Source of the DNA: Anolis carolinensis
Taxonomy: Eukaryota
Assembly: GCF_035594765.1 (NCBI RefSeq)
Contig: NC_085844.1
Coordinates: 37,153,923 to 37,217,922 of the forward strand
Direction: 5' to 3'
DNA: 64,000 nt
A model generated the notes under the pieces. It was not told the origin of the DNA. It made no database searches and saw only the letters and a list, made by a program, of their open reading frames with translations. A program made the position numbers and the translations under genes. Positions 53,381 to 54,806 of this stretch are shown here, in pieces; within the stretch, counting starts at the first letter, position 1, and each line of letters starts with the position of its first letter.

Positions 53381-53682
53381 TAAGGACTTTGGAATCACCT
53401 AGGCTGCTCCTATACTGTAAGAATTTATGTTGTTTGATAACACTTAGAATACAATTATATTCAGTCTATGGAAACTTAGGATTTTTAGTTTGGGGAGGTA
53501 CCAGCAAAAGCCAAAGCCGCTAGATTGGTTAAGGGCTCTTTTATCAGTCGAAACAGCAGGTTCAATCTGTGCCAGGTCTGTGAAGCAAGCTATCATTGTG
53601 TTGTCGAAGGCTTTCATGGCCGGGATCACAGGGTTGTTGTATGTCTTTCGGGCTGTGTGGCCATGTTCCAGAAGCATTCTCT

Positions 53683-53723
53683 CCTGACGTTTCGCCCACA
53701 TCTATGGCAGGCATCCTCAGAGG
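53683..53723 (-). ncRNA. Minimal type I hammerhead ribozyme (PLE-associated)
   Basis: Minus strand reads CCU-CUGAGGA-U-GCCUGC(CAUAGAU)GUGGGC-GAAA-CG-UC-AGG: conserved core, 6-bp stem II, palindromic ACGU stem III, GUC site. Confidence 0.85.
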
Positions 53724-53778
53724 TTGTGAGGTATGGAGAAAACTAAGAAAAGAGGTTAATATATATCTGTGGAAAGAC

Positions 53779-53874
53779 TAGGGTGACCTCTCTCACCCTA
53801 GTCTTTCCACTAGGGTGACCTCTCTCACCCTAGTCTTTCCACTAGGGTGACCTCTCTCACCCTAGTCTTTCCAC
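53779..53874. repeat. Three perfect tandem copies of a 32-bp hairpin unit
   Basis: TAGGGTGA-CCTCTC-TCACCCTA-GTCTTTCCAC at 53779, 53811 and 53843. Confidence 0.95.
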
Positions 53875-53919
53875 AGATATATATTAACCTCTTTTCTTAG
53901 TTTTCTCCATACCTCACAA

Positions 53920-53960
53920 CCTCTGAGGATGCCTGCCATAGATGTGGGTGAAACGTCAGG
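53920..53960 (+). ncRNA. Minimal type I hammerhead ribozyme, second copy
   Basis: CCT CTGAGGA T GCCTGC CATAGAT GTGGGT GAAA CG TC AGG; basal stem II pair is G-U instead of G-C. Confidence 0.8.
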
Positions 53961-54806
53961 AGAGAATGCTTCTGGAACATGGCCACACAGCCCGAAAGAC
54001 ATACAACAACCCAAGCTATCATTCTTCAACCAGGAGAGGGAGGTCTCATCCATCACTATTTCCAAAACGCTGTCAGTCTTCAGTTGCTTTACTTCTAATA
54101 GTTACAATGTTCCAACACTCAACTTCTCCTGTCTTCTTTCTTCACCCTGATCAAGGAGTGCCTCCATAGTTTGCATTCCACACCAGTGCCCTTTGCAGTT
54201 ACAGCATGGCGATTCTCTACTAACGTTGCTCATGTCTTCCTTTTCACCCTTTAGCTGCTTTGAGTGTCCTGTGTGAGAGGAAAGCTGGATAATAACAACA
54301 ATAATAGGAGATAACCCATGTTGGCTGCTTTTCACTGTGCATGTGTGGTGCTCTCATTTTGCTAGAATAGAAGCCATCACCACAAAGAAAAAAGGAAAAT
54401 AGGGGATCTGTATTGCAAAAGGCAAAGATTGGGTCTTGGATCAGTGACTACCAAAAGATGGGAATCACAGAATTCTGCTTGAGGGCCTTATCACACTTAT
54501 AGCTGATCTGTCCTGCTTCATCTCAAATTGGTGGGGCTGTGGGGCAAATCTGGTGCATTGCCTGCATTGCAAGTAGCAAGGAGGGGGAAAGGAAGCAGAG
54601 AGGAGGATTTGGTTGGGAGGAGACAGGCAGCTCAAAGTTTCAAATTCCTAATTTAAATCTATCTGGAAGAGGGGGAAGAAATCAATCCAGGAAAGACCCT
54701 CCTTCTTGGACCCTGAGCACCTTCAAATGGAGAAAGAGAGAAGCCAAAGGAGGAGGAGGAGGAAGAGAAGAGAGTAAGAGAGTGATTGGCAGGGAATGGG
54801 GAGGGA

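What the first reader, a model, noticed from the sequence alone, without database searches (positions are those of the whole stretch)
53761..53880. Triplicated 32-bp hairpin at the turn-around of a fresh Penelope-like insertion: possible iterative re-copying by the RT
Seen: the top strand reads antisense PLE from the 3' end up to TAGGGTGA, then flips to sense (CCTCTCTCACCCTAGTCTTTCCAC). It flips back to antisense TAGGGTGA through an AC microhomology, repeats this cycle until three perfect units are present, and only then runs out as the full sense arm. Established: PLE reverse transcriptases are close relatives of telomerase RT, and inverted pLTR insertions are known for PLEs. Inference: the three units record repeated fold-back and template re-engagement during one integration event, reminiscent of telomerase repeat addition, rather than later slippage. 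The arms differ by only one CpG transition, so little time has passed for secondary duplication.
Basis: partly seen in the sequence, partly recalled or inferred. Interest (0 to 1): 0.7.

Follow-up and report, generated by a model that had tools for sequence, protein, structure and literature searches.

The report
Triple-copied seam in lizard retrotransposon
A young, back-to-back jumping-gene insertion carries a 32-base piece copied three times at its central seam; such stutters recur at a few percent of this family's seams and are likely scars of repeated re-priming while the two halves were joined, probably by host repair rather than by a telomerase-like action of the element's own enzyme.

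Summary
Three perfect 32-bp units (53777-53874) lie at the turn-around of a 414-bp head-to-head Poseidon_Ac (PAc)-type Penelope insertion with a 12-bp target duplication. Contigs of runs from two studies hold all 32 phases of the tandem (at least two units; three cannot be counted), and two other studies hold the empty site. The stutter is not unique: about 69 loci carry 16-42-bp reiterations at the family's main junction hotspot (against 1,571 hairpin junctions), 5 of 68 with three or more units and one grown to a 56-copy minisatellite. The enzyme is not shown. The unit spans a non-native fold-back joint, so it was likely copied from DNA; it does not start at the RT initiation sites; and junctions of the family also carry telomeric tracts and foreign DNA. 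This fits iterated templated insertion by end-joining (Pol theta type) better than RT repeat addition. Later slippage of one unit is not excluded. The scan noted a similar stutter before in another genome.

The parts
53586..53597 (+). Left copy of the 12-bp target site duplication, ending in ATT
   Evidence: Exact 12-nt direct repeat with 54012-54023. Empty-site contigs in X2 and X6 join 53585 to 54012 with one copy. ATT is the preferred cut motif of PAc in vitro (PMC11167929).
53598..53786 (-). Left arm: PAc-type pLTR fragment in antisense on the top strand, including the tail
   Evidence: 98.9% to relative L113. The 88 nt at 53598-53685 are identical to the PAc template RNA printed in supplement 1 of PMC11167929 (compared by eye).
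53598..53630 (-). 33-nt 'tail', present on the left arm only
   Evidence: The tail is the stretch between the two RT start sites (PMC11167929). 55 of 57 resolved relatives end their sense arm 29-37 nt from the tail end.
53777..53874 (+). Three perfect 32-bp units plus 2 nt (AC); each unit = 10-bp stem, loop CCTCTC, 10-bp stem, CTTTCC
   Evidence: Parsed as antisense arm, then 27 nt sense + TAGGG twice, then the sense arm. At least two units in raw-data contigs of X1 and X15.
53784..53795 (+). First flip, at the native 3-bp quasi-palindrome TGA-(6 nt)-TCA
   Evidence: The native sense context in the closest relative L002 holds this quasi-palindrome.
53801..53810 (+). Back-flip at the native 2-bp quasi-palindrome GT-(6 nt)-AC; AC/GT microhomology, repeated at 53833-53842
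   Evidence: Sequence directly.
53848..54012 (+). Right arm: sense pLTR fragment ending at the inner RT start site (no tail); last base shared with the TSD
   Evidence: 98.2% to L113 over 165 nt; one C-to-T difference from the left arm at 53949.
54012..54023 (+). Right copy of the target site duplication

Best explanation
This is a young, polymorphic head-to-head PAc-type Penelope insertion whose central seam holds three exact copies of a 32-bp piece, likely laid down by repeated microhomology re-priming on a DNA hairpin while the two cDNA ends were being joined, probably by a host end-joining polymerase of the Pol theta type. Shown: structure, TSD, empty alleles, at least two units in raw data, recurrence and junction bias of such reiterations in the family. 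Inferred steps: (1) both nicked target strands prime cDNA, one at each RT start site (twin priming), which explains the tail on one arm only. (2) The right cDNA stops at the native TGA/TCA quasi-palindrome, snaps back and is extended by about 7 nt, ending in GT. (3) The left cDNA, ending in AC, primes on that terminal GT and copies through the hairpin; after 32 nt it ends in AC again. (4) Product and template each refold as hairpins (-8.4 and -9.2 kcal/mol), the primer lets go and re-primes in the same register. Two aborted rounds and one productive round give 3 x 32 + 2 nt. The logic resembles realign-and-copy repeat addition, but on DNA and by accident of local sequence.
For: Sequence: the tandem is exactly 3 x 32 + AC and both flips sit on native mini-palindromes. 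Survey: 57 of 90 young relatives (the first 90 of 2,400 matches, all on C1) resolve as inverted, and 5 of these 57 carry extra element-derived pieces at the seam by my reading (L040, L054, L074, L086, L119). Genome-wide, 81 matches (69 loci) of a doubled hotspot motif against 1,571 hairpin junctions; 45 of the 68 analysed loci score as inverted, the rest mostly simple 5' junctions, so a palindrome centre is not required. Control: a mid-arm motif in at least 15,165 arms is doubled at only 10 loci, 7 of them at a junction. 12 of 25 young reiterations are inexact (7 with two or more mismatches), and in 14 of 68 the last unit reaches at least 3 nt further 5' than the first unit and the other arm; slippage of a finished insertion would not give either. 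L132 and L074 have the same antisense-sense-antisense-sense layout with two units; L128, L165, L204, L208 have three unequal units. Nine junctions carry short TTAGGG-type tracts and L122, L140, L200 carry non-element DNA. Stem-loop-primed nascent microhomology and iterative dissociation/re-annealing are the described route to Pol theta templated insertions (PMC12426944, passages); cDNA snap-back at 5' junctions is described for R2 (PMC11371274, passages).
Against: No result here identifies the polymerase. The three units are identical, like 13 of 25 young reiterations, which slippage also produces; L190 (56 copies, 88% matches) shows that such seams can expand later. The review gives templated insertions as generally under 25 bp; the extra sequence here is 64 bp. 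The hotspot motif lies close to the usual 5' boundary, so its junction proximity (66 of 68 by script; L134, L135 and L172 look internal by eye) is partly built in; the mid-arm control carries the argument. No doubling was found for two other tight patterns. I did not test junctions of other retroelement families.
Confidence: 0.5

Rival explanations
1. The PLE reverse transcriptase itself re-primes and re-copies at the seam during integration, either on the cDNA hairpin or by alternating snap-back and return to the RNA.
For: Reiterations are tied to junctions and arise at integration. PAc starts RT without homology and extends both strands in vitro (PMC11167929). Self-priming by Penelope was proposed from palindromes at inverted junctions (PMC3846280, passages). 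R2 proteins jump templates. Many hotspot units share nearly the same 5' boundary, as realignment at an RNA 5' end would give.
Against: An RNA template would need the same snap-back and the same 7-nt extension three times. Arrays that look RT-made (L212, L213: 220- and 173-bp units) end each unit at the RT start site, unlike this unit. Some units include flank or joint sequence that is not in the RNA (L150, L164, L171, L173). Patchwork units and telomeric tracts point to host access.
Confidence: 0.2
2. The insertion arose with one or two units, and the rest were added later by hairpin-assisted replication slippage or rearrangement at the palindrome centre.
For: All three units are identical. 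After a first duplication a 34-nt perfect repeat is available for slippage. L190 (56 copies), L181 (4 copies) and L197 (3 copies) show identical or expanding units.
Against: Mid-arm duplications are at most 3 loci in at least 15,165 arms. The insertion is young enough to be polymorphic. 4 of the 7 other loci with three or more units have unequal units. Reiterations also occur without a palindrome.
Confidence: 0.25
3. The assembly miscounts the units (two real, three assembled).
For: Contigs built from 31-mers cannot count units; depths of 34.3 (X1) and 4.5 (X15) do not decide between two and three.
Against: A one-unit allele cannot give the 62-nt contigs seen in two studies. The genome is chromosome-scale, and the window has no N.
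Confidence: 0.05

Closest known systems
PAc / Poseidon_Ac, endonuclease-bearing Penelope-like element of Anolis carolinensis (PMC11167929; main text parts 1-2 of 4 and supplement 1 read)
   Same: 88 of 88 nt identical to the printed template RNA; arm ends offset by a 33-nt tail as expected from two RT start sites; TSD ends in ATT.
   Different: The parts read do not describe inversion junctions or reiterated units.
Inverted-pLTR Penelope insertions with tail and junction palindromes, e.g. Pen2a_Av of Adineta vaga (PMC3846280; passages)
   Same: Head-to-head pLTRs, TSD, optional tail on one arm, palindrome at the junction read as self-priming.
   Different: Single palindromes are described; no repeated hairpin unit in the passages seen.
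Templated insertions of Pol theta-mediated end joining / synthesis-dependent MMEJ (PMC12426944; passages)
   Same: Minimal microhomology priming, stem-loop snap-back creating new microhomology, dissociation and iteration, patchwork inserts copied from next to the break.
   Different: Usually under 25 bp and complex; here two extra exact 32-bp rounds between two cDNA ends. Pol theta dependence is untested.
Snap-back 5' junctions of R2 insertions (PMC11371274; passages) and twin priming of L1 (bioRxiv 10.1101/2024.12.14.628481; passages)
   Same: A cDNA 3' end primes on itself before joining; a second primer gives an inverted copy.
   Different: One snap-back round described; different element classes.
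Telomerase repeat addition (recalled)
   Same: Formal logic: the product of one round ends in the bases that re-prime the next round.
   Different: No dedicated RNA template or alignment region, 2-nt redundancy only, template likely DNA, unit differs at every locus.

Membership tests
PAc / Poseidon-type Penelope-like element | pLTR sequence matching PAc | tested here: met
   88 of 88 nt identical to the RNA in supplement 1 of PMC11167929 (by eye).
PAc / Poseidon-type Penelope-like element | Family ORF with RT and GIY-YIG endonuclease | tested here: inconclusive
   The window copy has no ORF. Relative L088 has an open frame of 386 aa with Pfam RVT_1 (E 1.5e-07); Pfam gave no GIY-YIG hit, though a GVY...YIG motif is visible in the translation.
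PAc / Poseidon-type Penelope-like element | 30-40-nt tail on one of two inverted pLTRs | tested here: met
   33 nt on the left arm only; 55 of 57 relatives similar.
PAc / Poseidon-type Penelope-like element | Target site duplication at an AT-rich (ATT) cut | tested here: met
   12-bp TSD ending in ATT; single copy in empty alleles of X2 and X6.
Pol theta-type templated insertion | Insert copied from sequence next to the joined ends | tested here: met
   All 64 extra bases map to the 32 nt at the seam.
Pol theta-type templated insertion | Priming by 1-6-nt microhomology or stem-loop snap-back | tested here: met
   3-nt TGA/TCA and 2-nt AC/GT at the flips.
Pol theta-type templated insertion | Confined to junctions; iterative, often patchwork | tested here: met
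   Family level. The window's own units are exact, not patchwork.
Pol theta-type templated insertion | Genetic dependence on POLQ | not testable with these tools
   Needs a transposition assay in POLQ-null cells.
Telomerase-like repeat addition by the element's RT | A fixed RNA template region copied repeatedly | tested here: not met
   The unit contains a non-native joint; the 26-nt hairpin occurs at this locus only; units differ from locus to locus (16-42 bp).
Telomerase-like repeat addition by the element's RT | Reiteration catalysed by the RT | not testable with these tools
   Needs sequencing of in vitro products.

The most novel reading that the evidence does not exclude
The PAc reverse transcriptase, a telomerase relative, realigns and re-copies a short template at the seam of its own insertions in a few percent of events, and these stutters seed new minisatellites (up to 56 copies at L190), while host telomerase competes for the same free cDNA ends. 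This would be a natural record of primitive repeat-addition behaviour in a Penelope RT.
Probability: 0.2. Interest if true: 0.65.

Novelty: new member of a known kind. Interest (0 to 1): 0.33.

Why it matters
How Penelope-like elements finish integration is stated to be unvalidated (PMC11167929). A genome with thousands of young inverted insertions gives a large natural record of that step. Reiterated seams at roughly 3% of hotspot junctions, telomeric tracts at nine and a minisatellite born at one seam give countable signatures to test against the existing in vitro PAc system and against POLQ-null cells. The single locus alone is an ordinary joining scar of unusual neatness. It would matter more if the RT proved to be the enzyme, because that would link Penelope RTs to telomerase-like realignment.

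Tried and rejected
One-unit assembly artefact: rejected by 62-nt contigs in X1 and X15. Family-wide triplication: rejected. Counting units from contig depth: not possible (34.3 in X1 against flank contigs of 24.2 and 43.8). X16 and X17 showed no contig over the centre, neither tandem nor one-unit; a hole proves nothing. Contigs of X1 and X16 cross the flank-element borders with only 22-27 letters inside the element, below the tool's 31-letter bar for bridging. Pattern for a doubled GAGGTACCTC hairpin: 0 matches, 3 per strand for the reversed control. Pattern for doubling just 3' of the unit: 0 matches. The polarity test on telomeric tracts was uninformative: the C-rich pattern returned 3 of the same inverted loci, a further inverted one (L218) and one non-inverted locus (L221) where the tract extends the target end. 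Rolling-circle copying of a closed 32-nt dumbbell was considered; it fits the period but needs a ligated circle and nothing else supports it. Literature searches for reiterated units at Penelope junctions and for telomeric tracts at retrotransposon inversion junctions listed no paper on it; the library lacks most subscription papers, and supplements 2-4 of PMC11167929 were not read. The first parse was too noisy in flanks and was condensed; 33 of 90 copies were left unresolved (no inversion, or arms beyond 1,300 nt). Gene context of the insertion was not examined.

Full report
Observation. Tandem Repeats Finder reports period 32, 3.1 copies, 100% matches at 53777-53874; the repeat finder gives three identical 34-nt copies spaced 32 apart. 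Each unit folds as a 10-bp stem with a 6-nt loop followed by 6 unpaired bases. The flanking arms are perfect inverted copies except for one C-to-T change at a CpG (53694/53949). The 26-nt hairpin occurs three times in the 1.85-Gb genome, all at this place.

The insertion. A 12-nt direct repeat (53586-53597, 54012-54023) bounds a 414-bp insert. Contigs of runs X2 (study P2) and X6 (study P3) join 53585 directly to 54012 with 107-289 letters on each side, so the empty site exists and the repeat is a target site duplication. The left arm is antisense and 33 nt longer than the right. Its outer 88 nt are identical, by eye, to the PAc template RNA in supplement 1 of PMC11167929. That paper (main text parts 1-2 of 4 read) shows cleavage at ATT, extension of both strands and two RT start sites that bound the tail. 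A long relative has an open frame with an RVT_1 hit. In 55 of 57 resolved relatives the sense arm ends 29-37 nt from the tail end. Twin priming from the two start sites is the natural reading (inference). Inverted pLTRs with tail, TSD and junction palindrome are known (PMC3846280, passages).

Is the tandem real? Contigs of 62 nt in X1 (P1, possibly the assembly's source) and X15 (P7) match 53813-53874 and 53809-53870 without differences. Each contains all 32 phases of 31-mers, which a one-unit allele (34 nt of tandem) cannot give. Two versus three units cannot be told. Of the four runs, X16 and X17 had no contig over the centre.

Anatomy of the unit. The closest relative L002 shows that the native sense strand holds two small quasi-palindromes 10 nt apart: TGA-6-TCA and GT-6-AC. 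These are exactly the two flip points. A parse against a natural copy gives antisense arm, then 27 nt sense plus TAGGG twice, then the sense arm. None of 28 other fetched loci with the native 27-mer has it in tandem. The native cDNA does not fold there (0 kcal/mol); after snap-back and 7 nt of extension it does (-9.2).

Survey. A 58-nt tail pattern has 2,400 exact matches; I fetched the first 90. 57 of 90 resolve as inverted within 1,300 nt. By my reading 5 of the 57 carry extra element-derived pieces at the seam (L040, L054, L074, L086, L119). Turn-arounds cluster near 126-140 nt from the tail end, where 1,571 hairpin junctions with gaps up to 30 nt are counted genome-wide. A doubled 12-nt motif from that hotspot has 81 matches at 69 loci; 68 were analysed and the last viewed (L215). 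Periods are 16-42 nt; 45 of 68 score as inverted, which puts the rate near 3% of hotspot hairpins (rough, exact-match patterns). Five of 68 have three or more units: L128 and L165 (unequal), L197, L181 (four) and L190, a 26-bp unit in 56 copies inside an inverted insertion. L132 and L074 repeat the window's alternating layout with two units.

When were the units made? A mid-arm motif present in at least 15,165 arms is doubled in 11 matches at 10 loci; 7 of the 10 lie at a junction, two mid-arm, one in an old tandem. Among 25 young reiterations (at most 3 mismatches in 95 nt of arm) 13 are exact, 5 have one mismatch and 7 have two or more. In 14 of 68 the last unit reaches at least 3 nt further into the element than the first unit and the opposite arm (older copies may be misjudged). 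These results favour synthesis during integration for the class. For this locus the units are exact, so slippage of one unit stays possible, and L190 shows that later expansion happens.

Which enzyme? Not shown. Points against RNA-templated re-copying: the unit includes a non-native joint; some units elsewhere include flank or joint DNA (L150, L164, L171, L173); arrays that look RT-made (L212, L213) end every unit at the RT start site. Points for host access: nine junctions carry short telomeric tracts, most continuing the cDNA end in register with GG or GGT, as described for interstitial telomeric insertions at breaks (PMC7215372, passages), and some seams hold non-element DNA (L122, L140, L200). 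Stem-loop priming and iteration are the described route to Pol theta templated insertions (PMC12426944, passages). Snap-back is also seen at R2 5' junctions (PMC11371274, passages). DNA-templated re-priming by the RT itself remains open.

Model (inferred). The right cDNA snaps back and ends in GT. The left cDNA ends in AC, primes on that GT, copies 32 nt and ends in AC again. Both strands refold as hairpins, the primer is released and re-primes in the same register. Two aborted rounds and one productive round give 3 x 32 + 2 nt, which is what the sequence shows.

Novelty. The insertion type is known. Searches listed no paper on reiterated units or telomeric tracts at Penelope inversion junctions, within a library that lacks most subscription papers. 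Earlier notes of this scan describe a similar stutter in another genome and patched seams in this one. I file it as a new member of a known kind (templated insertion at a retrotransposon junction), interest 0.33.

Noticed in passing
L154-L160, L218, L221 (G000 C1, C3, C4, C6, C9): Nine PAc 5' or inversion junctions carry 2-4 TTAGGG-type repeats, mostly continuing a cDNA 3' end in register; likely host telomerase acting on free ends during integration.
   Followed up: partly
L190 (G000:C11, about 11,945,500-11,947,000): A 26-bp minisatellite of 56 copies (88% matches) fills the seam of an inverted Penelope insertion with a TSD: a minisatellite apparently born from a junction stutter.
   Followed up: partly
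L212 and L213 (G000:C1 1,063,2xx and 2,664,3xx): Head-to-tail arrays of 220-bp and 173-bp pLTR pieces, each unit ending at the inner RT start site; candidates for RT re-initiation or copying of a circular hammerhead RNA.
   Followed up: no
L130/L131 (G000:C1:148,354,0xx): Both arms of one inverted insertion carry the same 42-nt duplication, suggesting that one arm was copied from the other or from a template that already had it.
   Followed up: no
L034-L123: Turn-arounds and 5' ends cluster about 126-140 nt from the tail end, just upstream of the hammerhead region, with identical hairpin junctions at independent loci.
   Followed up: partly
window 53848-53876: The repeated native piece looks like a spliceosomal acceptor (branch-like motif, pyrimidine tract, CAG; motif recalled, not tested); the triplication creates two extra tract-plus-TAG sites.
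   Followed up: no
L122, L140, L200: Non-element DNA of about 50-90 nt captured between the inverted arms.
   Followed up: no
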